Shown here in pieces: positions 11,307 to 37,700 of a DNA stretch of 39,712 nt. Position 1 is the first letter of the stretch, and every line of letters starts with the position of its first letter. The stretch lies in the NCBI RefSeq assembly GCF_000372725.1, contig NW_005202427.1, forward strand, positions 987,581 through 1,027,292, given 5' to 3'. The notes under the pieces were generated by a model. The model searched no databases, had not been told where the DNA came from, and saw nothing but the letters and a program-made list of their open reading frames with translations. Both the position numbers and the translations under genes were made by a program. The stretch is from Emiliania huxleyi CCMP1516 (lineage: Eukaryota).

Positions 11307-11416
11307 CGCTGGCAAAAGAATTTTGGCACGCGCGTTGCTAGACGGATTGAAGGAGAGCGATGAGTCAGAGGATGAAACAGCAGGGGAGAGAACGAGGACG
11401 AGAGTGAGAAGAACGA

Positions 11417-11600
11417 GAGGTGGCATGAAGGTCGCTGCGAGAATTGGTGAGAAACTGCGAAGAGAGATAGGAAGTGGTAGACGAGCGGGCGGTGGGCGAC
11501 GGCTAGCACCACACTCCTCTCCTTAAAATCCCTGTGTGGTGGCGGCGTGCCGTCCTCCCATCCCTCCCTTGGGTTCTCTGTTTTCTTTCTTTCTTTCTTT
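11417..11600 (-). repeat. Copy of the dispersed ~110-240-bp 'AAAGAAAGAAAACAGA..GGGAGGGATGGGAGGACGGCACGCC' element
   Basis: Its reverse complement is near-identical to copies at 35912, 36030, 36576 and 37406. Confidence 0.9.
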
Positions 11601-15560: not shown

Positions 15561-18023
15561 ATGAGCGGCTACACCTCGCCCACGTCATCCCTCAACTCCG
15601 CGGGCGCTGTGGCCACCGCCAACCCCGGCGGCACGTCATCACTCAACCCCGGGCGGAGGCGGCGGCGCTGGCTGCTCTTCGGCTGCGGCGGCTCGAGCGC
15701 AGAGTCAGAGGGCTGGGAGTCCGTGCGGCAGCTGCCCAGTGCGGAGCCCGGGGCCGTGGGTGAGGCGCCGCTGCTCCCCGGTCTGGCTGCGCTGCTCAGC
15801 AAGCCGGGGGCGGCGGCGCTGCGGGCGCTCGGTGACAAGGGCGACGAGGGGACGGGTGCTCGCTCCTCGCTTCCGCTCGAGGGCGGCGCCGTGCTGCTGC
15901 ACCACTGGCCGCTCGGCCTCGCGCTGACCTGCGTCGGCGGCGCCGTCGACGAGGTGGAGGTGTTTTGCGACCGCCACCCCTTCCAGCAGCGGCCGCCCGG
16001 CCGCCAGCTCCTTCCCGGCGTCTCATTCGGCTCGTGTCGCGCCGCCGTCGAGGCTGCGCTCGGCCCCCCCATCGGCGAGGGGTCGGGCTGCAAGGGGGGG
16101 TGGCTCTTCTACGGCCCGTGGCGGCTGCCCGGCCGCAAGAAGCGGGGCCTCGTGACGCTCGCCCTCTGGTTCGGGGAGGGGGCGGCCGGCGGCGGAGGCG
16201 GTCCTGAGGCCGGCGGCCCCGGCCGCAGGACAGAGCTCGATCCGGAGAGCGGGGGAGGCGGCCGGAGGGCGCCGCCCGGGGCGGAAGCGGAGAGGGTGGG
16301 GGGCGCGTGCGAGAGCGGGGGCGGGCTGCAGGCGGTGCGGCTCCTCCGCTCCGACGACCGCTCCCTCTGGCGCTCGACGCACGCGGTGCGGGAGGCTTCC
16401 CTCCGGACGGCAGACGCGTGCATCGCGGACGCGCAGCAGGGCGAGGCGGGGCGAGGCGAGGCCGAGGCGGGCGGGGCGGAGGAGGGGCCGCAGTGGCGGT
16501 GGCTGCGCAACCGGCGCTTCAACGCCGCGACGAACGCCGTCATTCAGGCGCCACAGCCGCCCGCCAGCAGCCGCAAGCAAACCCGCCCTCCGCCCTCGCC
16601 GCCCTCGCCGCCACTCCCCGCTCCCCCCCCACCCCCCTCCCCTCCCCGCCCCCACCCCCCTCCCCCCCGCCGCCACACGGGCAGGTGGCTGGCCACTCGA
16701 ACCTGTTCGAGCGCCTCTGCGAGTCGGTCATCATCAAGCAGAGCTCCACGCCCGAGAGAGCCGCGTACGAGGGCATCTCAGCCACGCCCCTCGGCCCGTT
16801 CGTGCCACGCTGCCTCTGCGCCTGCCAGCGCGGGGAGGCGCGGCCTTCCCCTCCCCCTCCTCCTCCTCCTCCCCCTCCTCCTCCTCCTCCTCCTCCTCCT
16901 CCTCCTCCTCCTCCTCCTCCTCCTCCGTCGGCCCCGCCCTCTCCCTCTCCTCCTCCTCCGTCGGCCCTGCTCCCTCTGCTCGCTTTGGTAGCCCCGCCTC
17001 CTTGTCAGCTGCCAGACCCTCGCTGCTCCCGACACGCTGACGCGACACCCACCCGAGAAGCGACGTCTCCCCCCCCCCCTCCCTCCCTCCCCCCCTCCCC
17101 TCCCCTCCCTCCCTCCCTGCAGGTGCAGCTGCTCTACATTGAGGACCTGACTGCTCGCTACCGCCGACCGTGCGTCATGGACGTCAAGGTTGGCACCCGC
17201 ACATTTCTCGAGGCGGACGCCGCCAGCACGCGCCGCCGCGTCGACCTCGCGCTCAAGATGCTTGCCGTCGACCCCGCCGCCCTGAGCGAGGAGGAGGCTG
17301 CGGCGGGCGTCACAAAGATGGAGNNNNNNNNNNNNNNNNNNNNNNNNNNNNNNNNNNNNNNNNNNNNNNNNNNNNNNNNNNNNNNNNNNNNNNNNNNNNN
17401 NNNNNNNNNNNNNNNNNNNNNNNGAGGAAAGGAGGAAAGAGGTCCGTGGGAAGGGAGGAAGAGGAAAGGTGGGAGACCGGGAAGGACGAAAGAGGAGGGC
17501 ACAACGGGTGGGGGAATGGGGGGAAGGAAGGAGAGAGGAGTGGGGAGAGGGAACACCGATCTTCACCTCCCCCTCACCACTCTGCGACAGGCAGCGCCGC
17601 TCGACGGAGCCCTCGTGCTCACGCACCGCGCGCCGTGGCAGCCGGGCAACTGCGAGGACGGGTGCGCACCGCACCGCGCCGCACCGCGCCGCACCGCGCC
17701 GCACCGCACCGCACCGCACCGCACCGCACCGCACCGCACCGCACCGCACCGCACCGCACCGCACCGCACCGCACCGCACCCCTCGCCGCCTCCCGACTGC
17801 TGCAGCTACCTCTCCGGCGTCGACCTAGACACTTCCTAGACACTTCCTAAACAACTTCCTTGTCCACAGCTACCTCACCGGCGTCGACTCGCTGCTCCAC
17901 CTCCTCTCGCGCCCCGACCCGCTCGCGGCCCTCTCGGCGCGCCAGAGGGGCCTCGCAAAGTGGCGCGGAGCGGGCGTGATGGTGCGGCATCAGCTCAGCG
18001 TGCGACGCGCCAAGCAGGCCTAG
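15561..18023 (+). CDS. Inositol-trisphosphate 3-kinase-like (IPK superfamily, ITPK type); exons 15561-16547, 16685-16837, 17123-gap, 17591-17661, 17870-18023
   Basis: Motifs Q|VAGH, IEDLT, PCVMDVKVGTRTF (PxxxDxKxG), the DLALKMLAVDPAALSEEE..GVTK lobe, and C-terminal HRAPWQPGNCEDG|YLTGVDSLL. It has two GC donors; part is hidden in the N-gap. Confidence 0.85.
17665..17780 (+). repeat. Intronic (GCACC)n microsatellite
   Basis: About 23 pentamer units. Confidence 0.95.
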
Positions 18024-18752: not shown

Positions 18753-19466
18753 TTAGCGCACGTACTGAAACAGGTCTCCGAGATCGTCGTCGTCGTCGGA
18801 CAGCACCACCCTCCCCCCCTCGCCCTCCTCCTCCTCCCCAGAGAGAAAGTCCTCCTCCTCCAGCTCCTCCTCGCCCTCGACGAGGCCATGCTCGTCCCCG
18901 CCGCCGACGCCAAACGCGTCCTCGTCCGACGCGCCAAAGTCGAGCCCGTCGTCGAGCAGGTCCGCGCCGCCCTGCCGCTCTCTCTCCTCCGCCAGCCGGT
19001 CGAGCCGCACCATCACGTCGACCGCCTTTGAGACGTCGACGTGCACAAAGGAGAGGCGCGGCACGCGGCGCATCTCCTTGAGCTCCTGCGCCATCACGTG
19101 CCGGATCGGACCGGCCGACGACTGCAGCCACCGGATCGCGCTGATCTTGTCCTTGCGCTCGCCGATGATGGACACCTTGACGCGTGCGTTGCTCAGGTCG
19201 GGCGAGAGGTCGACATCAACGATCGAGATCATGTGTCGCAGCCGCTCCTGGATCGCTCGCGGTCCGTGCACCGTGCCGGAGCGGATGATGGTGGAGAGCT
19301 CCTGCTGCACAACCTGCGCCACGCGGCTCACCCGCCGGCCGTCGCCGCGGGCGCCGCGGCGCTGCGAGAGCCGAAGCGCCGGCAGACCGGCGCGGGTGGC
19401 GACCGCCGGCCGGCTGCACCAGTGGTGCGGGGCGAGCCCCACCAGGGTGAGGACCAGGAGGAGCAT
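18753..19466 (-). CDS. rbfA: Plastid-targeted ribosome-binding factor A
   Basis: RVSRVAQVVQQELSTII, ISIVDVDLSPDLSNARVKVS and MRRVPRLSFVH match RbfA. It has an N-terminal signal plus transit-like peptide and an acidic tail. Confidence 0.9.
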   Translation of the reverse strand: MLLLVLTLVGLAPHHWCSRPAVATRAGLPALRLSQRRGARGDGRRVSRVAQVVQQELSTIIRSGTVHGPRAIQERLRHMISIVDVDLSPDLSNARVKVSIIGERKDKISAIRWLQSSAGPIRHVMAQELKEMRRVPRLSFVHVDVSKAVDVMVRLDRLAEERERQGGADLLDDGLDFGASDEDAFGVGGGDEHGLVEGEEELEEEDFLSGEEEEGEGGRVVLSDDDDDLGDLFQYVR

Positions 19467-19787
19467 GAATGCGCTCACTGGCAGCTCAGGCTATCAGGCC
19501 GCGTGCGTGAGCGAGAGACGACGCGTTCACAGCCGCGCCGACGGTTGGGCGACGGCGTTTACCCCGGTATTGACACGACATTGACACCTGTGTGCTGTGA
19601 GGCAGCAGTACACGCCTCTAGTGACATACTGGTGGCTCATCACTGTTTTGTACCCAAGCCACGTCATCGTTACCCCTGCAGGCCAGGCGACGATCCGAGA
19701 TGCAGGCGAGATAACGTACTCCCGTCTCTACTCTTGCCCGCGTGCTTGCGGCCCGCAGTGCCGCAACGCCGCGGTGCGCGGCGGACC

Positions 19788-20540
19788 TCAGCTGGCGCCG
19801 CCGCCCCCGCTGAGCTTGTGGATGCTCACGGCGAAGAGGCCGACTGCGGCGGCGCCGCCGAAAGCCTTGACGGGTAGTAGCAGCAGGGCGGGGTCCGAGG
19901 CGTGCACCTTGGAGAGGGCGCGCGCGAGGAGGAGGAGGTGGACAAGGACGAAGAGGACGGCGAAGGCGAGGATGAGGAGGACGAACGTCGACCGGTACCA
20001 CGGCCGCCCGAGCTGCGGCGCCTCGATCGCGTTCCCGAGGTGGTTGAGCCACTCTGCGGTCGACGCCGCCTCCGAGGCGGGCTCGAGCGCCATCGCCTTC
20101 TTGAGGGCCGGGTGGCGCTCCCGCCCGTCGGGCCGCATCGTCCACCGGTTACCGTGCACCTGGTACGACTCGACCACCTCCGCCTTGTTGAGAAGATTGG
20201 CCGCGTCCGCCGTCGTGCGCGTCACCTCTCGCTCGCGCCGCACGACCAGCAGCAGATAGTTGCGCGCCTCCGGGCGGAGGTCGAGCCAGTCGGGCAGCGC
20301 GGAGGAGACCGCCTCGCCCGGCCCCTTGCTCCGCCGATCCAGCCGCTCGGCACCGCCCGCGACGAGCAGCGCAGCGAGCAGCGGCCGCAGCGTTGCCTCG
20401 TCGTCGAGCACGGCGTCCGGAAGGTGCGCCGCGCGCGCGGCAGCGCGTAGCGAGTCGACCCCGTGCTCGGCCACGGGCAGGCCCTCGAGCGCGTAGGCTG
20501 CCAGGTCCTCCTTCGTGACCGGGAGGAAGAGGACCGACAT
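19788..20540 (-). CDS. Hypothetical membrane protein with two C-terminal transmembrane helices
   Basis: Single ORF from ATG 20540. Hydrophobic segments are FVLLILAFAVLFVLVHLLLLA and LLLLPVKAFGGAAAVGLFAVSI. Confidence 0.65.
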   Translation of the reverse strand: MSVLFLPVTKEDLAAYALEGLPVAEHGVDSLRAAARAAHLPDAVLDDEATLRPLLAALLVAGGAERLDRRSKGPGEAVSSALPDWLDLRPEARNYLLLVVRREREVTRTTADAANLLNKAEVVESYQVHGNRWTMRPDGRERHPALKKAMALEPASEAASTAEWLNHLGNAIEAPQLGRPWYRSTFVLLILAFAVLFVLVHLLLLARALSKVHASDPALLLLPVKAFGGAAAVGLFAVSIHKLSGGGGAS

Positions 20541-20716
20541 TGTTGAGTGCTGTGTCGACTGTGGCGTCGGGCAGTACAACAAGAAGAAAAACATTGGGTC
20601 GGCGTGCACTTTCTTCAAATCGTCACGAAGGGGTGACAAGTGTCATTACGAAACAGCGACGGACAGAAGGCCCGCCCTTTGTCGCGCCTCCATTCGGCCA
20701 GTTCGGACCGCCGCCT

Positions 20717-23021
20717 ATGAACGCGACCATCGAGGATCTCCTCGCGAGGCTGGAGCAGCTGGAGGCCCGGGTCGACGAGCACAGTCTTTTCCCTGGCGCG
20801 TCTGCCGACGTCCTCTTCCTTCTTGTGGCGTCGCTGAACGTCTTCTTCATGCAGGCGCCCCGCGCCCCGCCGGCCCCCCCACGCCCTGCTTGCGTCGGCG
20901 CTCCGCCTGGAGCCGCGTGCGTGTGCGTGCACCTCAGCTCGCCCCGCTGCCGCCCCGCGCAGTGCGGTTTTGGAATGCTCGAGGCGGGCTCGGTGACTTC
21001 CCGCTCGACGCAAGCCATCCTGCTGAAGAACCTGCTGGACGCGTGCCTCTCCGCCTTCATCTGGTGGGTGGTGGGGCACGGCATCGCGTTTGATGGCACA
21101 AACGACTTCATCGGCACGGCCGGCTCCGACATGAGCTCATTCTTCCTTTCCGGCTACGGCGCAGGTTCGCCGGCCGCCCATCACGCGCCCTCCCCCCTTT
21201 CCCGCCGCCAGCCCGCTCGCTCGCCCCCCCCCCCCCACCCTATCCCTCAGGCCCCGACTCGGGCTACCATCGCGTCTTCTGGTGGTTCCAGTGGACCTTC
21301 GCCGCCGCCGCCGGCACCATTGTCTCTGGCGCAGTGGCAGAGCGCGCGCAGCTACTCGCCTGTGCGCCTCCCGCTCCCTCGCCCCCCCTTCCCCCTTCCC
21401 CCTCCCTTCCCCCTCCCCGCCCCCTCCCGACCACCATCTCAGCCCACCCCCTCCCGCAGACCTGGCCTACACCTTCATCCTCACCGCCGTCATCTACCCC
21501 ATCATCGTCCACTGGTGCTGGTCCGAGGCGGGGTGGCTGTCCACGAAAAACGGGCATGTCGATTCCGGGGGTAATTTCCCCAGCGACGCGGTGCTGGACG
21601 GGGTGATCGACTTTGCAGGCGGGGAGACCCCCCCCCTTTAACCCCCCCCCCCCCCCCTCTCCCCCCCCCTCCCCAACCCCCCCCAACCCCCCCCTTCACC
21701 CCCCGATATGCGCCTCGCAGGCGCATCGTCGTCAACACGACACTGTCCGCCGCCGGGTCCGGACTCGTCTCGCTCGCCATCGCCACCCTTGGCCAGTGGC
21801 GCCGAGGCACCGTCAACTACGAGGCTCCTGCCATCTGCAGCCGCCATCCTCGCCCAGAGAACAAGACCGCCCCCCCGCCGAAAGAAGAAACACAGCGCGC
21901 TAGGTTCCCGCCATCTGCAACGGCATCCTCGCCGGCCTCGTCTCCATCACCGCCGGCTGCGCGACGGTGCGCCCTCACCCCCACCGCCATCCCCGCCGCC
22001 GTCTCCACCGCCGCCCTTGCCGCTGCCCATCCGTCCGCCGCCCTCACCACCGCCCTCACCACCGCCCTCGGGACGGCCACCACCGTCTCCGAGATTGGGT
22101 GAGACGAGCGTTGCGGCTAGGTGCACCCCTGGGCGGCGCTCGTCATCGGGATGATCGGCGGGCTCGTCTACCGCGGCTGCTCGCACTGTGTGCTCCACAA
22201 GCTCAAGGCGCCGAGAGGTCTAGAAGCGGAGAGACGCAGTCTTGTGCTCCAACTAGCGCGCGAGCGGGCACGTCTTCCGCCGTATTCGGCCCTCTTCTAT
22301 TCATGGTCTTCGCAGTCCGTGTATTCACGACAGTTGCTACCCCCCCCCCCACGGGACACCCACACTGGATTCGATACTATGGAGGTATGGTACAGGTGGA
22401 CGACCCGCTCGACTCGTCGTCAGTGCACGGCGCGTGCGGCGCGTGGGGCGTGATCGCCGCCGCGCTGCTCACCACGGAAGAGTTCGCCGCCGCCGCCGGT
22501 TACCAGCGGCGCGCGGGCCTCTTTTACGGCGGGGGCAAGCTGCTCGGCGCCGCGCTTCTGCAGGTGGTCTGCATCCTCTGCTAGTAACCCTAACCCTACC
22601 CATAACCCTAGCCCTAATCCTAACCCCAGCCCTAACCCCCACCCTCACCCTAACCCTTACCCCAACCCCAACCCTAGCCCTAACCCTAGCCCTAACCCTA
22701 GCCCTAGCCCTGCTATTGCAGATGGTGTGCATCCTCGCCTGGTCGGGCACCAACGCCGGCCTCGTCTTCTTGCTCCTGAAGAAGGCGGGCAAGCTGCGGC
22801 GGAGGGAGACCTGTGCGGAACCCCCTCCCCCCCCCCCTTTTCCCGCAGACATGGCCGCCGCCCCCGAGGAGGACCTCGACTCGTCCATCCACGGAGGGGC
22901 CCCCCTGGAACCCGCCGAGCACGGCTCGGGAAACACGTCGCGGGCAGAGTCCGTCGACACCTCCGACCCCGTCATCGAGATGCCCGATGCCACCCCAGAC
23001 AAGGACCAGCCGGCCGCGTGA
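20717..23021 (+). CDS. AMT: AMT1-type ammonium transporter (multi-exon; central TM5-TM6 exon(s) absent from this sequence)
   Basis: Motifs FFMQ|CGFGMLEAGSV, ILLKNLLDAC, WFQWTFAA..TIVSGAVAER, VIYPIIVHWCW, VIDFAG, VVNTTLSAA, CNGILAGLVSITAGC and KLK|VDDPLD..VHGACGAWG. Several GC-AG introns are present. Confidence 0.92.
22585..22710 (+). repeat. Interstitial telomere-like (CCCTAA/CCCTAG)n tract inside an AMT intron
   Basis: About 20 degenerate taaccc/tagccc hexamers. Confidence 0.9.
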
Positions 23022-23455
23022 GCCGGCCGCCCCCACACACATGCCGCATAATCCCCACGCTGCTAGACTCGCGCGGCCGCCGCAGCGAGCCCTTCTCGAT
23101 ACTGTCGTCTGTACTGTCGTCTGTCGCCGGCCTCATCGCACATGGCCGTGCCTTCCCTACACATGTCGTGACCTTTGTGCTTTGATAGCGTGGCCGGGGC
23201 ACCGAGCTGCGTCTGTGGTCATTGGTCTGTTCCTGGGTTAGAGGTGGTGCAGGAAATTCTCAGCCTCGCACGCACGCATGTCGTCGCGCGGCCGTATTGC
23301 ATAAGACTTTGCATAAGACGTACATAAGACACGCTTCCTCCCAGTGATGGGCTTGCCTCCACCCGCCGGAGTGCGAGTGGTTCGACCCCCCCGCCCCGCA
23401 CACCGCCTCCGCCCACGCAAATGCCCGAAATGCAAATCCGAGACGGGTGATGGGA

Positions 23456-26400
23456 TACTATGTTCAATCCCCCCTCCGGGTGATGCCAGGGCAGCAAAAC
23501 GGGCTACGGGTGGTGCCATGCAGCCAGCCTGACCCCCTAGAGCCGCCCGGCACCACCGCACCGGTGCGAGGCGTGATCGTGCTGCTTGGGGTACATTGTT
23601 GTTTTCATGGGCTCGAATGCGGTGTGAAAAAGGCGCTCCGAGGTGCCGATTTTGCACGAGAGTGCGAGGTTCGAGCTCTCGTGCTCCGTCCACAGGCTGC
23701 GAGCCGTCGAGTGCTCGCTTCGCACTTTCCATTGGGTCCGTTGGCGCATATCGGGCGCCTCGCAGGCACGCCGTCCCCGCGTCTCTGTGGAGGAGATGCG
23801 TCACCCGGTTGCACTCAAATCGCAGCCGAACGCCATATCGCTCCGTGTGCCCCACCGGTGGCTAGCCTGCCGCCACCGCTTCTTCGCACTTTCCACCAGA
23901 TGTGTGGGCGCGGGGCGGATGCCTCGCCGGCAGCCGAGGTGCTCTCTCCTCGGATCCTTTGCGTCACCCGCAAAAAGTTCTTCGGAAGCCACTGCCGTCT
24001 GGGCACTCCACCAGCCCTCCTCGCCTTTTGAGGCTGGGATTGGTGTCGCCCGTGGCATCTGCGCCGGTCGAGAGCTTCCACGTCGCTCATGCGCATCAGG
24101 GCGAGCGAAACGCTCGCCCTCGGACCGGTTGCCTCTGTAGAAGCTAGCCCGCTACTGTGCACCACGCTGTGTCCCTCTCTCAAAGAGGGTGTGTGTGACG
24201 ATACGTTCCTTCTAATCTATACCCGTGCCGAACATCACACGCACACACATCTGAATCACACACACATCTGAAGACAACTATCTGAATCACACGTCGGTCT
24301 AGGTCAACATCTCAAAGTCCGAGTCTGTGTCCTCGGCAGGCTCCTGCTCCGCCGCTGCGCCAAAGGCGGTCAGCGTTGCGGAGCCTGTGTGCGGCAGTTG
24401 GCGCTGGACATAGGCTAGACGTAACAGCGTGCGCACGTCGTTTCGGCGCTGTGCGACGAAGGCGTTGTTTTTTGCCTTCGCCGTCTTCATCGCCGTGCAA
24501 GTCCGCCGCATGCCGTTGAGCGGGGTGATCTCCTCACGCCTGCGGGGGCGGCGCGACACCGGTCAGCCTTATTGCAGGCATGCACACACACACACAGGGA
24601 GAGCGCACCCGCGAAGGTACTCGCTGAAGGAGCGAGTCAGGTCGCTCCTCACGTAGTCGACAGCCACCTCCGCGACAAAGTCCACCCAGAGCGCGCACTC
24701 GTGAGTGCAAGACTGCAGCTGCACATCCACCACCTCCAGCGCCCAGCCGGCGGCAGGCCCGGGGCTCCGGTGGAAGCAAGACGCGATGCCCGAGTCGATT
24801 GCGCCGCCATAGGGCTCGTGGTAGAGCACCCGTCTCTGGTCGACGAAGAAGAGGAGCTGGTGCCAGTGCCCGCCAAACTCGCTGCCGTCGGTAAAGCGCT
24901 GCATGACCAGCTTGCGCTCCGTCGGTGCCTCGCCCGCGAACAGCTTCGCCACCCACCCGGTGGGGGCTCCCGATTTGAAGCGGTTGAAGAGCGATCCGGC
25001 GCGAATCGTCATCCCCGAGATCGGCGCCCTCGCCTGCACGTCCTGGCTGTCGGCCCACGGTGAGAGGTCCTGCATGTTATGCACAATGATGTCGTTCAAG
25101 TGCTCGTCGTACCTGTCCGTCGGCACGGGGCAGCTCGAGCGACGCTGGGTCGCCCGGCCGTAGAGCGTCGGCTCTAGCTCTGTCCACGAGATGCCGAGCC
25201 CAGCTTCTGAGGAGACGGTAGACGAACCGGCCTGGGCGGAGCCAGCAGCACCGCTAGAGGCCGCATCCGTGGTGGAGCTAGAGGCCGCGGCGGAGGAAGT
25301 GGCGGCGGCGGAGCTGGCAGAGCTGGTGGCGGCCGCGCGGTTGAGAGTGGCGGCGGAGGCGGAGGTGCCAGTAGCGGTGGCGGAGGAGGGAGGGTCTGCG
25401 CGTGCCCGACGCCACACGCGGAGGGTGCCGGGCTGGAGCCGCGCGCCGGGGTCGCTCCGGATCGCGTCCAGAGCAAGACGTAGCGCCTCGCCCGCCAAAG
25501 CTTGCCCGGCCTCGGCGGGCAGCAGCTCTTCCACGCTCGACAGCGGCTCGGCCACCTTGCGGATCGGAGTCTTTGACTCGCCGCGGTTCCACGGATCCAT
25601 GATGTAGAGGTCCGACCCATCCAGCACCTCGTGTAGCCAAAGGTGGCTGACCTTGTTTGCCCTGGCGGCTGGAGTCTCCGTAACCAGAGCGAGGTAGACG
25701 CCGGGCTCGTCGCGGTAGGTGATCTCCGCGACGCGGTCCTTCAGGAGCCGGGACCGCGTCTCGGCGATCGATGACACCGGCGACTCGGTCGCGCCTCCGT
25801 CGTGCTGCTGCGCGGCCGTGGCAGCGTCCGCCGCCGCCGCCTCCGCCTCCTCCGCCGCCTCCCCTTCCGCCTCTGAGTCGACGTCGTCGTCGTCATCACT
25901 GCCGTCTACGTCCATTTCGCCAGTCATCGGCAGCTGCGCCGCGCCGCTCGCGCGCTCTGCCCGCCTGGCAGCTACCTCGGCCCTCTCCTCGCTCTCGGCC
26001 CAGCGAAAATCGTCGTCGCTCGCCTCGTACAACTTGTCGGCGTCTCGGTGGGCGGCAGCCATGTAGACCTCGAGCGTGAGAGGGTTGCGAAAGACGGAGT
26101 GATGGACGCCGGTCTTCGCCGTCTTGATCTGCTGTTCGCACTTAAAGTTCGAGATCGGTAGGCTCCGCGAGACTTCGCGAAGGTGCGATAGGAGGTCGAC
26201 CGAGTCCTTGACGAGGTCGCGGTCGACAATCTCCTCCAGCGTCAGCGACGCGTTGCCCGGCTGCTCGAGGACCTCCGAGATATCGTGAAGGATCGCCCGA
26301 AGCGTCGAAGAGCAGATGTCGCCCGGACCCTCGTACCTGTCGGACTCTATCGCGCTCTGCACCTTCTCGGTCGTGCTGCCGTCAAACATGTGGTTCGCGA

Positions 26401-29400
26401 TGCTCTCGTAGAATCCGGTGGCGCCCTGCTTCTCGTACGAGAGCAGGAGGTCGATGGTCGCCTTCAGACCACCCTTGTCGTCCAAGAGGCCATACTGCAG
26501 CAGAAGCGGGTTATCAAAGAAGGGCGAAGACTCGCGCTCAAAGTAGCCACTCGTGCCGAGGCCGTCCACGGTGTATTCGTTGGCCCCAAAAATACTGGTG
26601 GCGAGCGACTCCACGTTGACCGCTCTGAGGGCGGGATTGGCGGCCCGTTGCACAAACTCCTTGACCGGCAGGAGGTCGACAGCCCAGACAGAGGCGATCG
26701 GCGCGTTGGCGGAGTCCGCGGCCGAGGCAAGCCAGGCATAGCAGCGGCGCAACACGCGGTGGACCTTCTCCATCGCTTTCCCCTCGTCATTCTCGGTGAA
26801 GCTTAGGAAAGAGTCAAGCAAGAGGTTGTCGAATTCAGCGATGAGAGCGAGAGCGACGCGGACCTTGGGCTGCGCCACCTCGCGCAGCAGCGCCGCGAGC
26901 TTGGCGCCGATCGAAGTGGGCGACGAGTCGAACTTGTCGTCCAGCAGCACCGCCATACCCTCAAAGCCGATCGGGTCGGCGAGCGGGTCGTCCACGCCGC
27001 CCGAAGCAGGAGCCAGGCCACCGAAGCCGTTTGCGCGCAGCTCGTAGTCGACGACAAAGGTCAGGCCAATCTCAAGCCGCCGGCTTGTCGGGGCGAGGTA
27101 GGAGGCCTGGCCGCAAGAGTAGCCCCAACGCATTCCGGGCGACAGAGGCGCGCCGCCGAGCGTCTTCAGACCCTCCGTCTTTCGGATGTGCTCGGTGCAG
27201 CCGGGGGTCGTGCGAAGGGCGTAGCAGAGGTCCTCCAGCAGCTCAGTCGCGCGCCACCGACTCCCGCTCACCTCGTCGTCTCGCCTCTTTCGGTGCGAGA
27301 GGAGCAGGCCCGGAGCCCGCGTGAGCGGCCCGAGTGAGCGGAGGGCTTGCAGCCCCGAGTTGTGGCCGATGTGAGAGAGGCACGGGATGCGCGTAATCAG
27401 CCAGTGGCCGCCGCCCGTGTCCGCCTCGATGAGCTCGCAGAGCTGCTTGTGCACGCCTGCGTGTCGGCCGCTCATCGTGTTGTCGTTGTCCGAGCAAATG
27501 AAGTGCAACAGCTCGAGCGGCGCGCCCGTCGCCTTGACCGACCGCAGCGTCTCCCTGGCGATTACCGCAGCGGTCTTTTGCTTGCCGAGGTGCGAGGCGA
27601 AGCAGGAGACCTCACGGAGCCCGTCGTGCGGGCGAGTTGCTCCGAGGTGTCCCGCTATGAACCCTCTCCGAGAGCGGGAGCCGAGGTCGAAGGCGACGAA
27701 GTAGGTCACGCGCGAGAAGGTGAACTCCACCTCTTGCATGCGCTGCACCCGGTGGACGGCCCGGTCGATGAGGGAGCACGTGCCCGCGCTCGGCAGCCGC
27801 ACGCGTGCGATATCGTCGTCCGAGATGTCGAACAGGAGCGTGGCGCCATCCCGAGCGAGCGACGCAGCGCCGCGCATCGAGATTGAGCGCTCCGTACCGC
27901 TTTTGTGGCGGTACAAGTACACGGCCTTGCGCAGGGCGGCCGAGTAACGATTACCCGTCATGTTTTGACGCAGCGCGTACTCGACTCGATGGCGTGGCCG
28001 GCCGCGCTGCGGCCGGCGCGCCTCCGCTGCCCGCACCTCCGCCGCGCGCTGCCACAGGCCGAGGAGCGAGTCGGCCTCTGTCGGCTCCACCTTGCCGAGC
28101 ACGCCGGGCAGGTGGAGCGAGAAGAGCTTCACGTCGTCGATCGCCTGCAGGGCGGCCCGCTGCAACAGCGGAGTGTTGAGCGACGCCTGCAAGACGTCGA
28201 GGCTGTAGAGGCCCGGGAGCGTCGGCACGTCGCTGGGCTCGTACACCAGCAGCAGCTGCGAGCGAAACGCTACGCCGAGGGAGCGGCCGGAGCGGCCCTG
28301 TACCTCTGGCCGCATGACGAATTCGCACATCATCAACTGAATGAATGCACCCCCGCCAAAGTGTCGCAGCGGGTTCGAGAGCTTCAGCGCCAGTTCTCGA
28401 ACGAGCCTCGTCGTTGCCGCCGCGTGCAGCCGCTGCCGCCGCCGCTCCTCCTCGCGCAGCCCTACGACTTGCAAGTCGAGCCGGGCTTGGGCACGCAGCT
28501 CGCGAGGCGTCGGCACGCCTGATGTTTGCGTCCCGGTTGTCGCTGTAATCGCTTCGCGAGCGGCGGCACGGTGGCCAACCTCCTCCAGCTCGAGGCGTCC
28601 GATGTCTGCCACCAGCGTGAGCACGCTTGCTTGCTGCTGCTGCTGCTGCTGCGCAGGCTCCGCTGGAGCACTGCTCAGAGAGGGAGGTTCCTCGTCAACC
28701 TCCATGCGATCTCCGTTCGAGGCCGCAGCCGACGAGCCGCCGACGAGCCGCTGCGGCGCTGCACGGGAGAGCGATCCTCGGCGTCCGTGCTCTCTCTGGT
28801 TGTAGATCCCGTCGCGGCGGCCCTCGTCGCTCGTGCTATGCAGCTCCATGGCCTCGCCGAGGACGTCGCCAACCGTAGCATGCCGCGGCGCTCTCAGGTT
28901 CTTTGCGACGCCGACTCTGCGCGAGCCAGCACGGCTTTGCGGCCGCGAGGACGTTGCACTCGGCGAGGGCGCCTGTTGTGACGAGATCGGAAGCGTGAGA
29001 TAGCGACGACTGCGCAGGCACAGAGTCGCAAACTGGCGGTACCGAGCGGCGATCTGGTCCTGGCCTGGAGCCGGGACGGACTCCTTGGCCGCTTTTGCGA
29101 CGCTGTCCCAGGCCTGCGCCCGCTCTTTTCGGCATGGCTCGAGCACGAGACAAGTCGGAAAACCGCGACAACTTCGGCGGGCATTCACAGATTTTTACCA
29201 CCTCGGAAGCAACGCCTGTGTGTTCACCGGTGCTAGAGAGTGTCGAAAAGGAGTCCACACTGCATTCATCGACATCAACGCGCCCCGCTGCGCCGCGCTA
29301 CTCGCGAGAGCGGGAGGAGATTTGGGGAGATTGTCGGGAGATTTCCAAGATTGTCACCGGGGTGTGCGTGGGTAAGTCGTGCGTCCTACGTGCCAAGGCG

Positions 29401-29647
29401 ATGTGCATGCTAGTCTGGCTCGTCCCAATACGCTCAGGGGGCCGAGAACAGCGCTCTGTCGCGCGCTACTTTCCGTGCTGCTGAGAGAGGCCCGGAGGGG
29501 CCCACCACGGCCCACGCTCGCCTCGGAAATGCAAAAAAATGCTCCCAGGCCCCCTCCCGCCCACCCCGCACACCTGCTTGACTACTCCCGAGCCCCACGA
29601 GCCGAGGCGAGAAAGTTCGAATTAAAGTGCGGAGTTTGAACATGGTA
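23456..29647 (-). mobile_element. Autonomous hAT-like DNA transposon (~6.2 kb) with 12-bp TIRs and a 6-bp TSD
   Basis: Left end TACTATGTTCAA (23456-23467) and right end TTGAACATGGTA (29636-29647; reverse complement TACCATGTTCAA) match at 11/12. ATGGGA directly flanks both ends (23450-23455 and 29648-29653). The ends enclose the transposase gene. Confidence 0.75.
24299..29135 (-). CDS. hAT-like DDE transposase fused to a C-terminal Ulp1/adenain-like (clan CE) cysteine protease; exons 29135-29043, 28972-24609, 24539-24299 (~1565 aa)
   Basis: Transposase motifs FVAFDLGS (D), FICSDNDNTMSG..AGV (D), RIPCLSH (CxxH), MRW and LPISNFKCEQQIK (E). Protease motifs GGHW, LYHEPYG and QLQSCTHECALWV. Two ~70-nt GT-AG introns restore one continuous frame. 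Confidence 0.8.
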
Positions 29648-31813
29648 ATGGGATGCTGGCTCTGTGGTCTCAGGCCCAGTGAGGTAGTGCACGCGACTAT
29701 CTCCCGGATCCTGCTGAACAAGCTCCTCTTGTAGCTCGATCGGTCACACCGCCATCACCGTCGAGGAGAGGGGGGACGACACTGCCTCAGCACACAGAGC
29801 AGCGTGCACCTCGATCCTGTACCGTGTTTGTTATGACCCCCCCCAGTGAACACACCAATGAGGGTGGGCGAGACGATCGAGGGGTCCCGTACCACGCGGA
29901 ATCGACCCTATCCAGTGCTCAAGTGCTCAAGACACGCTATGGACTAAGATATGCATTCGCGCGACGTCTAACCCTGCCAATGCACTGTGTACTCTCTAGG
30001 AGAGTACATAAGCTAAAAGTATACGTACATAGGCAGGACACACCGGTGCATATAGGGCCGGTACATACACATAGCAGTACTGGCCACGTCCCGCGCTGCC
30101 TCCCGGCCCAGTTTCAGATTTTTCAGCGCGCCGCTCGCATGTGCGGCGCGATCGTCCGCCATGAGTCGATCGGCAGCGCGACTCGTAACTTGCGGCCATG
30201 CTATCACCCTTGCGACAGCCTGTCGGCGCTGCTGACCGTGCCCTGCTGCACAATTGACCACCTGCATAGCTCGCGGCCTTAGCATCCAGCACATTCAGTG
30301 ACGACCTGATCGACCTGATCGTACGGCCAGTAGGAAGGTGTCCTTCCAGCGCGTGCACGCTTCTGACGCAATGCGCGTCACAAACTGCCTCGGATTGGCT
30401 GCTGGCAATCTCGAGGCTATGCCTACACAGCCTCGCGCGCATGGGTAGTCAAGAGGGACCACGCACCTTCTCAGGACAGCGCCGGTGCCTCTCTCTTGGA
30501 CCGGCCTGTCTGCTGTCTGGAGTGATATGTCGGCGGTCAGTACGACCGATCAGGTCGGAGTTTGCTGATGATTGGAGGGTCTATCTGTATGTACTCCTCG
30601 AGATCTCTCCAAATCTTCCCTCTAATCAACCGTAATCATTCGGGAAGTTGGCGCTCTGAGCGACTCTGAGCGCCGGGGCCCCGTTTCCGCACTGCTGCGC
30701 GGCGCACGGTGCCTCCGGGGGCCCCCGCCTCCCCCCAGAGCCGGATGCTCGGGGACGGGCTACGGGCAAGAGAGCCCTGACCCCGAGCACTTGGAGCAGT
30801 TGGGAGCCTCACACCCAGGGCCGGGGAGCTCAGAAGCGCACCCAGCGGGCCAGATGATCGGGATCGGGTTGCGGGCAAGAGAGCCCTAGCCCTGGGGGGT
30901 GCGCGTTCGCAGGGAAGGGGCCATAAAGAAGTAAACACGGTTCTCCGAGGGTTGGACCCGCGTACCGGGTTTCCCTTAACTGCAGGACGCCCCCTCTACT
31001 CGGAGCTAGATGCAGTGGACATTACACTGTACACCACGCACAATCACAGACACTTGCTTAGAGCCGTAGAGCACTTGGAGCACTTGGAGTGCAGTTGGCA
31101 GCCGCACGCCCAGGCAGGGCCGGGGAGCTAAGAAGCGCACCCAGAGGCCGGACGATTGGGGCAGCGGCGCGCCTGCAACTGGCTCGATGCGGCCGCCGGC
31201 GACGGGTTGACGCGGCTCGATCTGCTTCTCATCTTCACGTTCGTCGCGTTTTGGAGGAGCTCATCTCCATGTATGCAGCGTCGAATACACGTCGTGCATG
31301 AGGGTGCAGGATGAGAACGTAGAGCCGCGGGCGCGCCGGGGTGACCCGGATGAGACGACAGAAGACGTACTGCAGTGGATACACGCACTACACACACCAA
31401 AGATCACCAAGCACAGAAGATCAGCCTAGGAAAGACAAGCAGAGCACGGGCTGTCGGCGCGATCCATTTCAAGCCACCCAGGGCCCGGCGCGGCTAGAGG
31501 GGGGGGTGTTCTCTAGGCCCCTAAAGGCCCTACGCGCGGCGTGAGAGCTCGGAAGCGAGCTTACACGGCGATCGAGGATGGCGCGGTTCACCCCCTTCAC
31601 CGAAGCGATGGACCAGATGCGTTCCGCGTGGTGTGAAACAAACGAGAGGCGGGAGTGCTCTCTCTAAATGTACGTAAGAGCCACATAAAAGAGAGAGGTG
31701 GTCAACGAGACCGAGCATCAAAACTTCAGGAAAGAAGAAAAAGAAAAACTCCGGTCTGAATCAACATTCTGTACCCCTCCTCTGCACCCCACACTCCGTC
31801 GGTCAAGCGGTCA

Positions 31814-34800
31814 ATGGCGTTGGCCCACGGCGTCGTGACGGCAGAGCTCGAGCGGCCGTTGCTTGCGAACGATCGGCAGGCCTCGAATCCGCGGGAGGGT
31901 CTTACCTCCGCCCAAGCCGCTGCGCTTCTGCAGGAGTTTGGTCGAAATGAGATCGTCGAAGAGAAGGTCGCCGACGACCACCGCCGCTTCGTGAGTTACG
32001 CTTCGCATAGTAACCGCCACCTCCTCGGCCCACACCACAGGAGTCCATGCTCTACATGTTCACCAAGCAGTTCCTCGGCACGATGCCAGCCATGATCGAG
32101 CTCTCGGCGATCCTTGCAGCGGCGCTCGGCGACTGGCTCGACTTTTTCATCATCGGCGCTCTGCTGCTCACAAACGCGACCCTCGGCTTCATCGAGGAGC
32201 TAAACGCCCAGAGCTCTGTCGACGCCCTCAAGGACGGCCTCATCCGCAAACTCCCGGTCAAGCGCGACGGCAAGAGTGTCATGATTGAGATCACCGAGGT
32301 AGTTCCCGGGGACGTGGTCTGCCTCTCCCGCCGTTGCAGTCCGCTGTTCTCCAGCCCCTTCCCAAGTCTGCGCGCTTCACTGTAGGTCTTTGTGCGCGGC
32401 GGCAACGTCGTGCCTGCAGACGGCCGCTGGCTGCATGGTGACGAGCTCTCGGTCGACCAGGCTGCGCTCACGGGAGAGTCGCTGCCCGTCGCCGTGCCGC
32501 GCGAGGACGGCGATGAGGTCGGCTCGGGCGAGAAGCTGTGGAGCGGCTCCATCATCAAGACGGGCGAGGCCGAGATGCTCGTCACCGAGACGGGGCTCAA
32601 CACGATGATGGGCGAGGCCGCCAAGTCGATCCAGGAGTCGAGCGGCCACCAGGTCGGCCTGCTCGAGTCCAAGATCCAGGCGTCGGGCAAGGTGCTGATC
32701 CTCATCACGCTCGTCGCCGTCTCGGCGCTCCTCTACTACCAGGTGGTCGTGCGCGGGCAGGAGCTGGGTGAGATCCTCGAGATGTCGCTCTGCCTCGTCA
32801 TCGCCAGCGTGCCCGTGGCGCTGCCGATGGTGCTCAAGGTGACGCTCTCCGTCGGCGCAAAGGAGCTCGCGGGGGAGGGCGCCATCGTCACTCACCTCAC
32901 CGCGCTGGAGGAGGTCGCCTCGATGCGCGTGCTGTGCTCCGACAAGACGGGCACGCTCACCACCGCGCAGATGACGGTCTACCACTCCATGGCGAAGTGC
33001 TGGAACGGCTTCACCGCCGAGCAGGTCCTGACTTACGCGGCAGTCGCCTCCAATGCGGCCAACAAGGACGACGCCATCGACCGCGCGGTCTACCAGGCCT
33101 TTGCCGAGATGAGCGTCGGCCCGGGCGGGGACGTGGACGTCGCGGCCGACGCGCTAGGAAAGAAGTTCCGCACCGAAAAGTACTTTGGCTTCAACCCGAC
33201 TGTCAAGCGGACGGTCGCGGACGTGCTCGATCTCAACACGGGGAAGAAGTTGCGCGTGGCGAAAGGCCACCGTCGCGATGGCCTCGAGACCCGAAGCTGT
33301 GACATATCACTGATACCACGACACCTGGCCATAGGCATTGTCTCCAAGATCCTCGAGACGGGCGCCGACGGCGGCGAGACCTGGAAATGCTCCGACTTCG
33401 ACACGATCGCGCCAAGCGTCCGCGTGGCCGATGCGGAGTTCGGCAAGCAAGGCTACAAGACGATCGCGGTCGCGGTGGGCGTCAACGGAGGCCCGATGAA
33501 GTACGCCGGCACGTTGCCGATCATGGACCCGCCGCGCTCAGACACGGCGTCGACGATTGCCAATATCCGCGGCTCTGGCGTCGCCGTCAAGATGATCACC
33601 GGGGACCACCTCAACATCGCGAAGGAGATGGCGCGCCAGATTGAGCTCGGAACCAACATCATGCCCAACACGGAGCTATGGCCGGTCTCGGCCCAGCGCG
33701 ATGAGCTCATCCACTGGGCCGACGGCTTTGCCCAGGTGATGCCGAAGGACAAGCACGAGGTGGTGGCGGTCTTGCAGCAGGCTGGCCTTGTCGTCGGCAT
33801 GACCGGAGACGGCGTCAACGACGCGCCAGCTCTGGCGAAAGCACAGGTTGGCGTCGCCGTCGCCGGCGCCACCGACGCGGCCCAGACAGCGGCCGACATC
33901 ATCCTTACCCGCGAGGGGCTAGGGCCGATTTACACTGCGATCCTCACGTCGCGGCGCATCTTCAAGCGGCTCAAAGCGTACGTCGTCTACCGCATCTGCT
34001 GCACCGTACAGGTCGTCTGCTTCCTGTGCTTCCTGTCCTTCGTCTTCAACGAGGCCTTCTCCGCGCTCTACATCATCCTGCTCGCGCTCTTCCACGACCT
34101 GACCATCGTCACCATCGCGTACGATAAGCAGACGCCGTCGGCGCAGCCAGAGACACCGACCGTTCGCGGGCTGGTCGTCCAGTCGTACGCGATGGGCCTC
34201 TTCCTTGCCGCCGGCTCATGCATCCTCTTCGTCTACGGCCACGCGTTCATGAGCGAGTCCTTCGTCGAGTCTTTCAAGTACAAGGAGGCGCTCATGTTCT
34301 TACAGATCACAAACTCGTCCGCCTTTCTCATATTTTCGGCGCGCACCCCCGGCTTCTTCTTCGCTTCGACACCCGACAACAAGCTCGCCGGGTCGGCCAT
34401 CGCATCGCAGATCGTCGTGAACGGACTCGTTCTCTTCTCGGGCGGGTGAGATGCAGCCTAGACGAAGCCGTTACGTAGCTTCCTACACCCCCGCCTCTGC
34501 CCCGGTGCCAGTTGGCTGGTGAACGAGCTCCGGCCACAAGATGTGCTCATCACCTGGCTGTACAACCTCGTCTTGCTGCTGCTACTCGACGTGGTCAAGA
34601 TGGGGGTGCTCGAGGCCGAGGCCCTCCTCGAGGGCGGCGCCTCGCGGCCATCGGGCCGCAACGCCTTTGCCGGCCTCGCGTCGTGCTGTGGCCTCCTCGG
34701 CGGCTCGAAGCGGACGGCGACGTCGGCCGGCCGCGGTACTCGCGCTTCCGTCTCGCGCTTCCAGTCGGGCTCGAGCCGCCTCTCCCAGGCGAACGTCAGC

Positions 34801-35229: not shown

Positions 35230-35911
35230 AGGGGACGATCCGGGCGAGTGTGGCAGTCTAGTATCGTGCCCTGTGTGTGAAGAGTAGTGGCAATTCGGGA
35301 TCGTGAAAAGTTGATGAAATCATTACCCCGGGACACGCGCCCCCGGGGCGCGCAAACTGTCACTTCTCGCAGGCTGCGAGAGACAAGCTTTCTCGGAGCG
35401 ACAGGCTCAAAACAAATAAGGGTATGTTGGGTGCGATCACTAGCGAACGCCAGTGCGCTCCAGAATGGTGCGAATGCCCTTCGATCGCGTCGGTCCTTCG
35501 AACACGCCGTACGCCACCCTAGGGTTCGGTACGTACTTTCTATCCTCCGCCATTTTGTCTTCCTGGTCCATTCCTCCGTCCGTCGCCGCAAAGTGTGTGA
35601 AATCGTGTGAGACGTGCAGCGCGAGGCATGTCTGCGCTACTTTCACGTTCAGGGCTCGTCCCTTCCCGGATCGGAGCGGCTCGCTGTCTGTTCCCATCTT
35701 GATTTGCGCTCCTTTGCCGTCTCTCAGCTCGCCCCCGTCTCAAATTCGTCGTATCGGAGCAAGAAGCGCGTTAGGAGCTTAGGGGATCCTCCTGTAGCTC
35801 CCCTACTCTGATCGCGCTCGCCCCGTGTCCGTTATCCCACAAACAGCTCGTAGCCTTCGTTCTGCCAGTTTCTGTGTCTCTGGGGCGCTCCCTCTGGGAA
35901 CCAATTTTCTC

Positions 35912-36209
35912 AAAGAAAAGAAAGAAAACGTACAACCCAAGGGAGGGATGGGAGGACGGCACGCCGCCACCACACAGGGATTTCACTGGAAGGAAGGTGT
36001 GTTGCTAGCCGTCGCCCACCCTTTTTCTCAGAAAGAAAGAAAGAAAACAGACAACCCAAGGGAGGGATGGGAGGACGGCACGTCGCCACCACACAGGGAT
36101 TTTAAGGAGAGAAGTGAGGTGCTAGCCGTCGCCCACCCTTGTGCGTCTACCTTTTCCTATCTCTGTTCGCAGTTTCTCGCCAATTCTCGCAGCGACCTTC
36201 ATGCCACCT
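35912..36209 (+). repeat. Two adjacent copies of the dispersed AAAGAAAGAAAACAGA element (35912-36020, 36030-36209)
   Basis: Near-identical to the copies at 11417-11600 (reverse complement), 36576 and 37406. Confidence 0.9.
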
Positions 36210-36249
36210 TTTTTGCCACCCTTTTTCTCCTGCGAAAGGAGTTCGCTGC

Positions 36250-36575
36250 GAAAATTCTTTTTCTCGAGTCGTTCGGTGGGTTCGGGAAGGGGGTCGGCGA
36301 GATCCTCTGGAAGGCGGCGGACGTTCGACAGAACAAGCTGACGCGGGCCCAGTACCTCGATGAGGTGACTTGGACCACCAAGAACGGGCTAAGGCTGCAG
36401 AAACAGCGTATCTCAGTCGTTCTTCACACGGCCATCGCAGAGCAGATTGTGAATGAGCTTGCCTGCGGCGAGGGCGGTCGAGTGCACGGAGCTAAGTGCC
36501 TCACCGTCCTCGCAGGAGTCGCTTAGGCGGCTCCCGTGGTGTACCTGTGTTAGTGCCAGTGCGCGCCAGTCCCGC
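36250..36575 (+). mobile_element. 5'-truncated fragment of an RLE-type (CRE/R2-like) non-LTR retrotransposon
   Basis: ILFLESFGGFGKGVGEILWKAA...QKQRISVVLHTAIAEQI resembles the C-terminal restriction-like endonuclease end (P..hEThG.hG.....L..LA...QRLSV.LQ.GNA). The stop at 36526 is followed by a short UTR and an A-rich tract. Confidence 0.55.
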
Positions 36576-36682
36576 AAAAGAAAGAAAGAAAACAGAAACC
36601 CCGAGGGAGGGATGGGAGGACGGCACGCCGCCACCACACAGGGATTTTAAGGAGAGGAGTGTGGTGCTAGCCGTCGCCCACC
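36576..36682 (+). repeat. Dispersed element copy
   Basis: aaaagaaagaaagaaaacagaaaccccgagggagggatgggaggacggcacgcc...gtcgcccacc. Confidence 0.9.
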
Positions 36683-36742
36683 TGTAGAGGCCGCCGGAAA
36701 CGGGACTATACGCGGCACCCGCGCTCGTCGCGCCCCGGGGCG

Positions 36743-37360
36743 GTGCGCAGACATCGCGAATTTGCCCGCTCGCTCGACCCTTTTGCCGCGAGAGGGCGCC
36801 GGCCGCGTGTAAGAGGTGGCTGGCGCCCTCTCGCGGCATTTGGTGGCGTGGGGAGTGTGGAACGCTACTGGCGGTGTGACAGGGCCTCTCTCGGTTGCGT
36901 ATGCCGCCATCGGCACGCGGGTGCACAGACATCGCGACTCCTGCGCGACTCTGCCCGCTCGCTCGACCCTTTTGCCGCGAGAGGGCGCCGGCCGCGTGTA
37001 AGAGGTGGCTGGCGCCCTCTCGCGGCATTTGGTGGCGTGGGGAGTGCGGAACGCTACTGGCGGCGTGACAGGGCCTCTCTCGGTGCGTATGCCGCCATCG
37101 GCACGCGGGTGCGCAGGCATCGCGACTCTGCCCGCTCGCTCGACCCTTTTGCCGTGAGAGGGCGCCGGCCGCGTGTAAGAGGTGGCTGGCGCCCTGAGGC
37201 GGCAATTGGTGGCGTGGGGAGTGTGGAACGCTACTGGCGGTGTGACAGGGCCTCTCTCGGTTGCGTATGCCGCCCCATCGGCACGCGGGTGCACAGGCAT
37301 CGCGACTCTGCCCGCTCGCTCGACCCTTTTGCCGCGAGAGGGCGCCAGCCGCGTGTAAGA
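36743..37360 (+). repeat. ~180-bp tandem repeat (about 3.4 units), each full unit carrying a GC-rich hairpin
   Basis: Units start at ~36743, 36921, 37109 and 37289. The inverted repeat is tgccgcgagagggcgcc...ggcgccctctcgcggca, degenerate in unit 3. Confidence 0.9.
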
Positions 37361-37405
37361 CTAACCCAAGGTCAGCGTGCGGGGCTAAGTCATGTTGTTG
37401 CTCTT

Positions 37406-37700
37406 AAAAGAAAGAAAGAAAACAGACAACCCAAGGGAGGGATGGGAGGACGGCACGCCGCCACCACACAGGGATTTTAAGGAGAGGTGTGTGGTGCGCT
37501 ATCCGTCGCCCACCCTAGGGAGTCTGCCTCTTCCTATCTCTCTTCGCAGTCTCTCGCCGATTCTCGCTGCAACCTTCATGCCACCTCGCGGTCGTCCCAC
37601 CCTCGTCGTTCTCTCCCTTGTCACTTCCTCCTCTGTCGCGTCGTTCTCTTAAAAGAAAGAAAGAAAACAGACACGCCAAACGAGGGATGGGACGAGCGTC
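37406..37700 (+). repeat. Long copy of the dispersed element followed by a variant copy starting at 37651
   Basis: The same 5' AAAAGAAAGAAAGAAAACAGAC start occurs at 37406 and 37651. Confidence 0.85.

What the first reader, a model, noticed from the sequence alone, without database searches (positions are those of the whole stretch)
23450..29653. Intact element ends: 12-bp TIR (TACYATGTTCAA) with an unusual 6-bp TSD
Seen: ATGGGA|TACTATGTTCAA...TTGAACATGGTA|ATGGGA brackets the transposase gene. Canonical hAT elements make 8-bp TSDs, and shorter TSDs mark atypical sub-lineages. A perfect TSD plus an undisrupted 4.7-kb CDS suggests a recent, possibly still active insertion. An alternative reading is an 8-bp TSD with one mismatch (GATGGGAT/AATGGGAT) and 11-bp TIRs.
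Basis: partly seen in the sequence, partly recalled or inferred. Interest (0 to 1): 0.75.

Follow-up and report, generated by a model that had tools for sequence, protein, structure and literature searches.

The report
Coccolithophore hAT transposon, six-base duplication
This is a complete 6.2-kb jumping gene, likely from a coccolithophore alga, whose exact ends are shared by many other copies; it duplicates six rather than the usual eight target bases, and its transposase is predicted to have the hAT fold plus a likely SUMO-removing protease, an uncommon but not unprecedented variant.

Summary
Observation confirmed. The element spans 23456-29647 between two ATGGGA copies. 16 of 21 metagenome hits are true ends of other copies; all 16 begin with the perfect TIR TACCATGTTCAA although the search pattern left the terminal TA free, and their flanks differ. 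This fixes the ends and refutes the 8-bp-with-mismatch reading. A second insertion (L013/L003) also shows exactly 6 bp. The gene has no Pfam or PDB sequence match, but its predicted core (pLDDT 86) matches Hermes best (Z 19.2, next family 10.2) and keeps D503, D569, CxxH, RW and E1020 across relatives. A Tudor/BAH-like barrel and a Ulp1-like protease follow; no BED finger was found. The nearest named protein is from Emiliania huxleyi (98-99% identical). Six-base TSDs are already known in hAT (hAT6), and Repbase holds a haptophyte subgroup, hATv (T. lutea Shanks: 6.8 kb, 7-bp TSD, no Pfam hit), which this probably joins; that could not be tested. Recent mobility is supported; present activity is not shown, and this copy's left TIR carries a change seen in none of 11 other left ends.

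The parts
23450..23455 (.). left copy of the 6-bp target-site duplication (ATGGGA)
   Evidence: sequence; only length 6 fits
23456..23467 (+). left TIR; T at 23459 where the family has C
   Evidence: 11 of 11 other left ends read TACCATGTTCAA; an X2 contig starts exactly at 23456 and X11 loose ends lie before 23456
23456..29647 (-). whole element, 6,192 bp
24569..28849 (-). transposase ORF from first ATG, 1,426 aa (frame open from 29194; residue numbers below follow the 1,541-aa stop-to-stop protein P0001)
   Evidence: GC3 0.83 against GC2 0.50
25985..28330 (-). hAT-fold transposase core (aa 289-1070): helical N-part, RNase H domain with D503 (27688) and D569 (27490), C605xxH608, R689-W690, helical insertion, E1020 (26137)
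   Evidence: conservation; model pLDDT 85.7; Hermes best match
25409..25762 (-). Tudor/BAH-like beta-barrel (aa ~1145-1262), possible chromatin reader (weak)
   Evidence: model pLDDT 67-92 here; best Z 7.9 Tudor, 6.6 BAH, all under 8; present in clusters of P0010, P0015, P0017, P0019
24572..25177 (-). Ulp1/C48-like cysteine protease domain, H1443-E1460-Q1494-C1500
   Evidence: Atlas score 0.95 to PF02902 clusters; weak Pfam C48 in 6 of 11 alignment members, best E 0.02; four residues invariant in the 10 rows that cover them
29636..29647 (-). right TIR, family consensus
   Evidence: 5 of 5 other right ends identical
29648..29653 (.). right copy of the 6-bp target-site duplication
25407..27687 (.). 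2,281-bp stretch deleted in a common non-autonomous derivative; removes the catalytic core from D503 on
   Evidence: joint 25406>27688 in X1 and X5; P0004/P0005 leave the frame at this point

Best explanation
This is a full-length 6,192-bp transposon with 12-bp inverted ends and a 6-bp target duplication, whose single large gene is predicted to encode a hAT-fold DDE transposase that likely cuts the element out and pastes it with a 6-base stagger. Shown: the ends, the multi-copy family with internal-deletion derivatives, the 6-bp duplication at two sites, the conserved D-D-CxxH-RW-E residues. Predicted: the Hermes-like fold. Inferred from Hermes (partly recalled): binding of both TIRs, excision through hairpins on the flanking DNA, strand transfer at two phosphates 6 nt apart, gap repair giving the duplication; deleted copies would be moved in trans by full-length copies such as this one. 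Inferred, weaker: the Ulp1-like tail would remove SUMO/ubiquitin-like tags to ease silencing or repair control, and the Tudor/BAH-like barrel could tether the enzyme to chromatin in place of the missing BED finger. It most likely belongs to the haptophyte hATv subgroup of Repbase (about 60%, untested).
For: Ends: 16 of 16 true ends start TACCATGTTCAA with 15 different flanks, terminal TA not in the pattern. TSD: among 72 left x right flank pairs and lengths 3-10, only two match, both at 6 (window; L013/L003, same assembly prefix); chance of one non-window match about 2% over 55 pairs, 0.3% over 9 same-prefix pairs. Empty-site-like junction with one copy of the hexamer in 2 of 4 DNA runs (X1, X2; table 7). 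Catalytic residues: D503 38 of 39 rows, D569 39 of 42, C605 42 of 42, H608 37 of 41, R689 40 of 47, W690 38 of 41, E1020 14 of 19. Fold: Hermes E 9e-8 against 0.018-0.02 for ISCth4 and P element; Z 19.2, 389 aligned, rmsd 3.6, next family Z 10.2. Host: P0006, E. huxleyi CCMP1516, 98-99% identical; Prymnesium members in the P0019 cluster. Analogue: Shanks/hATv, TIR 9 of 14 letters alike by eye.
Against: No Pfam hAT family matches P0001, P0003 or 34 of 35 relatives scanned; one relative has PF05699 at E 0.047, below cut-off. TSD length rests on two filled sites only, and the second is paired across two contigs by the match itself. The TIR does not start like Shanks (TACCA against TAGGG), the TSD is 6 not 7, and Shanks is described with two ORFs. 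This copy's left TIR is mutated. The protease and barrel assignments are from a language-model score and sub-threshold matches; the protease part of the model is of low confidence. The empty-site-like junctions differ from the window flank at two or three letters and may be paralogues rather than alleles.
Confidence: 0.85

Rival explanations
1. Ordinary hAT with an 8-bp TSD carrying one mismatch and 11-bp TIRs.
For: The two 8-mers differ at one base, and an empty site would read the same under both readings.
Against: The T and A claimed for the TSD are present in 16 of 16 other ends with unrelated flanks; at L013/L003 the first base of the right flank excludes 7 and 8.
Confidence: 0.02
2. IS3EU element: 6-bp TSD and TAY..RTA ends are that superfamily's marks.
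For: 6-bp TSD and TAC..GTA termini; fungal IS3EU make 6-bp TSDs (PMC12730594).
Against: IS3EU there end TAYGG..CCRTA with TIRs over 30 bp; here TACCA..TGGTA and 12 bp. The core has CxxH, RW and a 450-residue D-to-E spacing and matches Hermes far above integrase-like cores.
Confidence: 0.03
3. A hAT-derived but separate superfamily-level group (as Dada or KDZ are held apart from hAT; recalled), sharing only the fold.
For: 10-12% identity to Hermes; no Pfam hAT match; no BED pattern in 9 of 9 N-termini examined; the nearest Atlas clusters are unnamed, hAT-labelled ones score 0.85 or less.
Against: The match to Hermes runs from its dimerisation region to its C-terminus (model 117-769 to Hermes 82-609); short TIR and hAT-like size; Hermes is the only hAT in the structure library, and Dada/KDZ have no solved structure among the rows, so the test is one-sided. 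Repbase files the similar Pfam-less haptophyte elements under hAT.
Confidence: 0.08
4. A member of the animal hAT6 group that reached haptophytes by descent or transfer.
For: hAT6 is defined by 6-bp TSDs.
Against: hAT6 sits in the Blackjack/animal lineage and hAT6-1_NVp was aligned with ordinary hAT proteins (PMC3942097), whereas none of the 83 relatives found is named as animal and the 35 scanned lack Pfam hAT matches. Most relatives have no taxon, so this is indirect.
Confidence: 0.05

Closest known systems
Repbase hATv subgroup / Tisochrysis lutea Shanks (PMC10138859; passages and supplement S6 parts 1 and 33 seen)
   Same: Haptophyte host (16 Repbase elements from T. lutea, Chrysochromulina sp., E. 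huxleyi); 6-7 kb; no Pfam hit; non-8-bp TSD; many internal-deletion derivatives; TIR TA....G.TCAAAC shared, 9 of 14 letters by eye.
   Different: Shanks has a 7-bp TSD, 26-bp imperfect TIRs and two ORFs (793 and 580 aa); this element has 6 bp, 12-bp TIRs, one ORF. No domain was assigned to Shanks in that paper. Protein homology not testable here.
Hermes (canonical hAT; PDB 6dwz, 4d1q; PMC10368747 passages seen)
   Same: Predicted fold over dimerisation, RNase H and insertion domains; D-D-CxxH-RW-E order; short TIRs.
   Different: Hermes has 612 aa, a BED finger, 17-bp TIRs, an 8-bp nTnnnnAn target; this protein is 1,426 aa, lacks a BED pattern, adds barrel and protease, and 14 target hexamers show no fixed base.
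hAT6 (Repbase; PMC12730594 section 3.1.2 seen)
   Same: 6-bp TSD in a hAT-type element.
   Different: Placed with Blackjack and other animal hATs; no sequence link shown; likely an independent shift to 6 bp.
Ulp1-bearing DNA transposons: Ginger1, Mutator (PMC2836005 passages seen)
   Same: C-terminal Ulp1/C48 protease fused to or carried with a DDE transposase.
   Different: Different transposase superfamilies; here the triad acid is Glu.
IS3EU (PMC12730594 section 3.1.3 passage seen)
   Same: 6-bp TSD, TAY..RTA termini.
   Different: TIR length and sequence, and transposase architecture.

Membership tests
hAT superfamily | RNase H-like DDE core with large helical insertion between second D and E (Hermes fold) | tested here: met
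   D2-E spacing about 450
hAT superfamily | CxxH and RW motifs after the second D (motif definition recalled) | tested here: met
   C605 42 of 42, H608 37 of 41, R689 40 of 47, W690 38 of 41
hAT superfamily | short TIRs (10-25 bp; PMC3942097) | tested here: met
   12 bp perfect in 16 of 16 ends
hAT superfamily (canonical) | 8-bp TSD | tested here: not met
   6 bp at 2 of 2 paired sites; 5-, 6- and 7-bp groups are accepted exceptions
hAT superfamily (canonical) | C-terminal hATC region (PF05699) | tested here: inconclusive
   no Pfam match; one relative at E 0.047; the fold match reaches Hermes residue 609
hAT superfamily (canonical) | N-terminal BED zinc finger | tested here: not met
   no Pfam match; no CxxC..H..H/C pattern in 9 of 9 N-termini; an unseen upstream exon is not excluded
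hATv (Repbase, haptophytes) | haptophyte host | tested here: met
   E. huxleyi and Prymnesium records
hATv (Repbase, haptophytes) | transposase homology to Shanks or other hATv entries | not testable with these tools
   Repbase not held; supplement cells cut at 400 letters
hATv (Repbase, haptophytes) | 7-bp TSD as in Shanks (not known to hold for the whole subgroup) | tested here: not met
   6 bp against 7 bp
hAT6 | 6-bp TSD | tested here: met
hAT6 | placement in the Blackjack/animal lineage | not testable with these tools
   no hAT6 sequence obtained; names not found in the supplement text held
IS3EU | TAYGG..CCRTA ends and TIR over 30 bp | tested here: not met
Ulp1/C48 protease | H, acid, Q, C catalytic residues in order | tested here: met
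   H1443, E1460, Q1494, C1500 invariant in 10 rows from 4 clusters
Ulp1/C48 protease | fold and SUMO-cleaving activity | tested here: inconclusive
   Atlas 0.95; Den1 E 0.08, Senp2 E 0.18 on a low-confidence model; activity untested

The most novel reading that the evidence does not exclude
A haptophyte lineage of hAT-derived transposases has dropped the BED finger, gained a Tudor/BAH chromatin reader plus an active Ulp1 protease, and varies its target stagger (6 bp here, 7 bp in Shanks) independently of animal hAT6. This would give a natural pair for finding what sets TSD length, and a native, still mobile tagging tool for a bloom-forming alga.
Probability: 0.35. Interest if true: 0.62.

Novelty: new variant of a known kind. 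Interest (0 to 1): 0.42.

Why it matters
The element is real and young, and it is invisible to Pfam, so such families sit as 'hypothetical proteins' in haptophyte genomes. The fold prediction gives the first domain map I could find for this kind of haptophyte element (searches; Repbase Reports and subscription papers not searched). If it is the sister of the lab-mobile Shanks, the 6 versus 7 bp contrast makes the structural basis of TSD length testable, and the system could serve for insertion mutagenesis in coccolithophores. The 6-bp TSD on its own is not new.

Tried and rejected
No whole genome is held for this window, so copy number and the empty allele could not be counted directly. Pfam and PDB sequence searches gave nothing usable. 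A word-based search with aa 289-1541 found nothing although one search found full-length relatives. No relatives in viral contigs or prokaryote genomes. Rfam: 0 matches in the window. 5 of 21 pattern hits (L004, L009, L017, L018, L020) were dropped as chance: no BLAST match to the element at E 1e-8; L009 happens to start with the same 12 letters. RNA runs X11 and X16 (contigs only) cover the ends and patches of the gene but not most of 26351-27813; this shows neither expression nor its absence. Contig depth (ends 4-14 times the flank in X1, X2, X5) is only a hint, not a copy number. MazF and other SH3-barrel rows for the C-terminal model were taken as a shared common fold. No regular subterminal repeat array was found; CGCACTTT occurs near both ends. 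Literature searches for hAT with Ulp1 gave 0 papers holding all terms; two reviews were not held; PMC5753468 had no hAT6 passage; hATx-6 has an 8-bp TSD, BED and hATC, so hATx was set aside (PMC8721813 passages). Three look-ups of earlier scan notes returned nothing.
Full report
Observation. The window reads ATGGGA (23450-55), TACTATGTTCAA (23456-67) ... TTGAACATGGTA (29636-47), ATGGGA (29648-53). In 3 kb on each side of the ORF this is the only pair with an exact duplication of 4-8 bases and an 11/12 inverted repeat; 4 of 300 shuffles gave one. The ORF on the minus strand is open for 1,541 codons (24569-29194), 1,426 from the first ATG at 28849.

Ends. No genome is held, so I scanned metagenome contigs with a pattern covering positions 3-26 of both ends and leaving the first two bases free. 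16 of 21 hits align to the element's ends (11 left, 5 right); 5 were dropped as chance. All 16 begin TACCATGTTCAA and the base just outside varies; 15 flanks are distinct (L008 and L012 share one). So the terminal T and A belong to the element, the ends are 23456 and 29647, and the 8-bp alternative fails. All 11 other left ends have C at position 4, so the window's T at 23459 is peculiar to this copy. Laid contigs agree: an X2 contig starts at 23456, X11 loose ends lie before 23456 and an X1 loose end behind 29648.

TSD length. Comparing 12 left with 6 right flanks at lengths 3-10 gave two matches of 72 pairs, both at 6: the window, and L013/L003, which share an assembly prefix. L003 has only six flank letters before what I recall as a library adapter, but its first flank base already excludes 7 and 8. 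The chance of such a match is about 2% over 55 non-window pairs and 0.3% over 9 same-prefix pairs. In 2 of 4 DNA runs (X1, X2) a contig joins left-flank-like sequence to the right flank with one copy of the hexamer; it differs at two or three letters, so allele or paralogue is open. 14 target hexamers show no fixed base.

Family and age. Core contigs differ from the window at 2 of 1,793 (X1), 0 of 1,034 (X5, possibly not independent of the window) and 3 of 1,531 bases (X8, another organism label). Several internal deletions recur, among them 25406>27688, which removes the catalytic core and explains the truncated proteins P0004-P0006. 5 of 7 metagenome copies aligned over aa 1385-1389 carry a frameshifting indel that the window lacks. 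The nearest named protein is an E. huxleyi CCMP1516 hypothetical protein at 98-99%; Prymnesium polylepis records fall in a relative's cluster. Most relatives carry no taxon.

Protein. Pfam and PDB sequence searches found nothing. A full HMMER scan found 83 clusters. In a 72-row alignment (72 of the proteins then held) D503, D569, C605, H608, R689 and W690 are kept in 38/39, 39/42, 42/42, 37/41, 40/47 and 38/41 rows and E1020 in 14 of 19. The model of aa 289-1070 (pLDDT 85.7) puts D503 on the first strand, D569 after the fourth, CxxH after the fifth and E1020 on a helix after a long helical insertion. Foldseek ranks Hermes first (E 9e-8); ISCth4 and P element follow at about 0.02. VIA-align gives Hermes Z 19.2 (389 aligned, rmsd 3.6) and integrase cores 10.2 or less. 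No BED pattern was found in 9 of 9 N-termini. After an acidic linker comes a beta-barrel resembling Tudor and BAH domains, best Z 7.9, under the tool's threshold of trust, then a low-complexity linker and a Ulp1/C48-like domain (Atlas 0.95; weak Pfam support) with H, E, Q and C invariant in the four clusters that reach it.

Mechanism. Shown: ends, duplication, family structure, conserved residues. Predicted: hAT fold. Inferred from Hermes (PMC10368747 passages; hairpin chemistry and residue roles recalled): TIR binding, excision, staggered strand transfer, here 6 nt apart, and host repair. Deleted copies keep both ends and would be moved in trans. Ulp1 domains on Ginger1 and Mutator transposons have been proposed to act on SUMO or ubiquitin pathways during transposition (PMC2836005 passages); the same is the likeliest role here, untested. 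Present activity is not shown.

Comparison. hAT families with 5-, 6- and 7-bp TSDs are published as hAT5, hAT6, hAT7; hAT6 lies among animal hATs (PMC12730594). IS3EU also makes 6 bp but has TAYGG ends and TIRs over 30 bp. The closest description is T. lutea Shanks, 6.8 kb, 7-bp TSD, two ORFs without Pfam or HHpred match, mobile in culture, which Repbase places in hATv, 16 haptophyte elements including E. huxleyi (PMC10138859). Its TIR matches this one at 9 of 14 letters by eye. I could not see Repbase, the paper's S4 figure, or the full Shanks sequence; these bear directly on novelty, and the family may already be listed there.

Verdict. A real, intact, recently mobile hAT-type element with a true 6-bp TSD and an unusual domain set; a new variant of a known kind, possibly already catalogued as hATv. 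Interest 0.42.

Noticed in passing
window 29700-29931: A ~230-bp repeat of extremely high copy number begins about 50 bp right of the element (summed contig depth 10^5-10^6 against about 40-70 for the left flank in X1 and X2, sharp edges near 29702 and 29931); also in L011. No Rfam match; type unknown.
   Followed up: partly
window 20500-22600 (+): Ammonium transporter gene pieces (PF00909) end under 1 kb left of the insertion; an effect on its expression is possible, untested.
   Followed up: no
window 32386-34449 (+): P-type ATPase ORF (PF00122, PF00702).
   Followed up: no
window 18756-19490 (-) and 16208-17323 (+): Ribosome-binding factor A (PF02033) and inositol polyphosphate kinase (PF03770) exons.
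   Followed up: no
window 22585-22711: Degenerate (TAACCC)n array, 21 copies, telomere-like, inside or just after the ammonium transporter gene.
   Followed up: no
window 35900-37700 and 11397-11598: Repeat of ~106 bp in at least four direct copies plus an inverted copy 24 kb away, and 177-189-bp tandem units with a 55-nt palindrome; likely another mobile element.
   Followed up: no
window 30785-30988; L006, L011, L021: A dispersed repeat here has copies into or near which other copies of the element have inserted (L021 junction falls at the homologue of 30988).
   Followed up: partly
run X11 on window 23465-24266 and 29567-29654: RNA contigs of the element's ends are far deeper than those of the ORF, suggesting read-through or a transcribed short derivative; contigs cannot show strand or level.
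   Followed up: no
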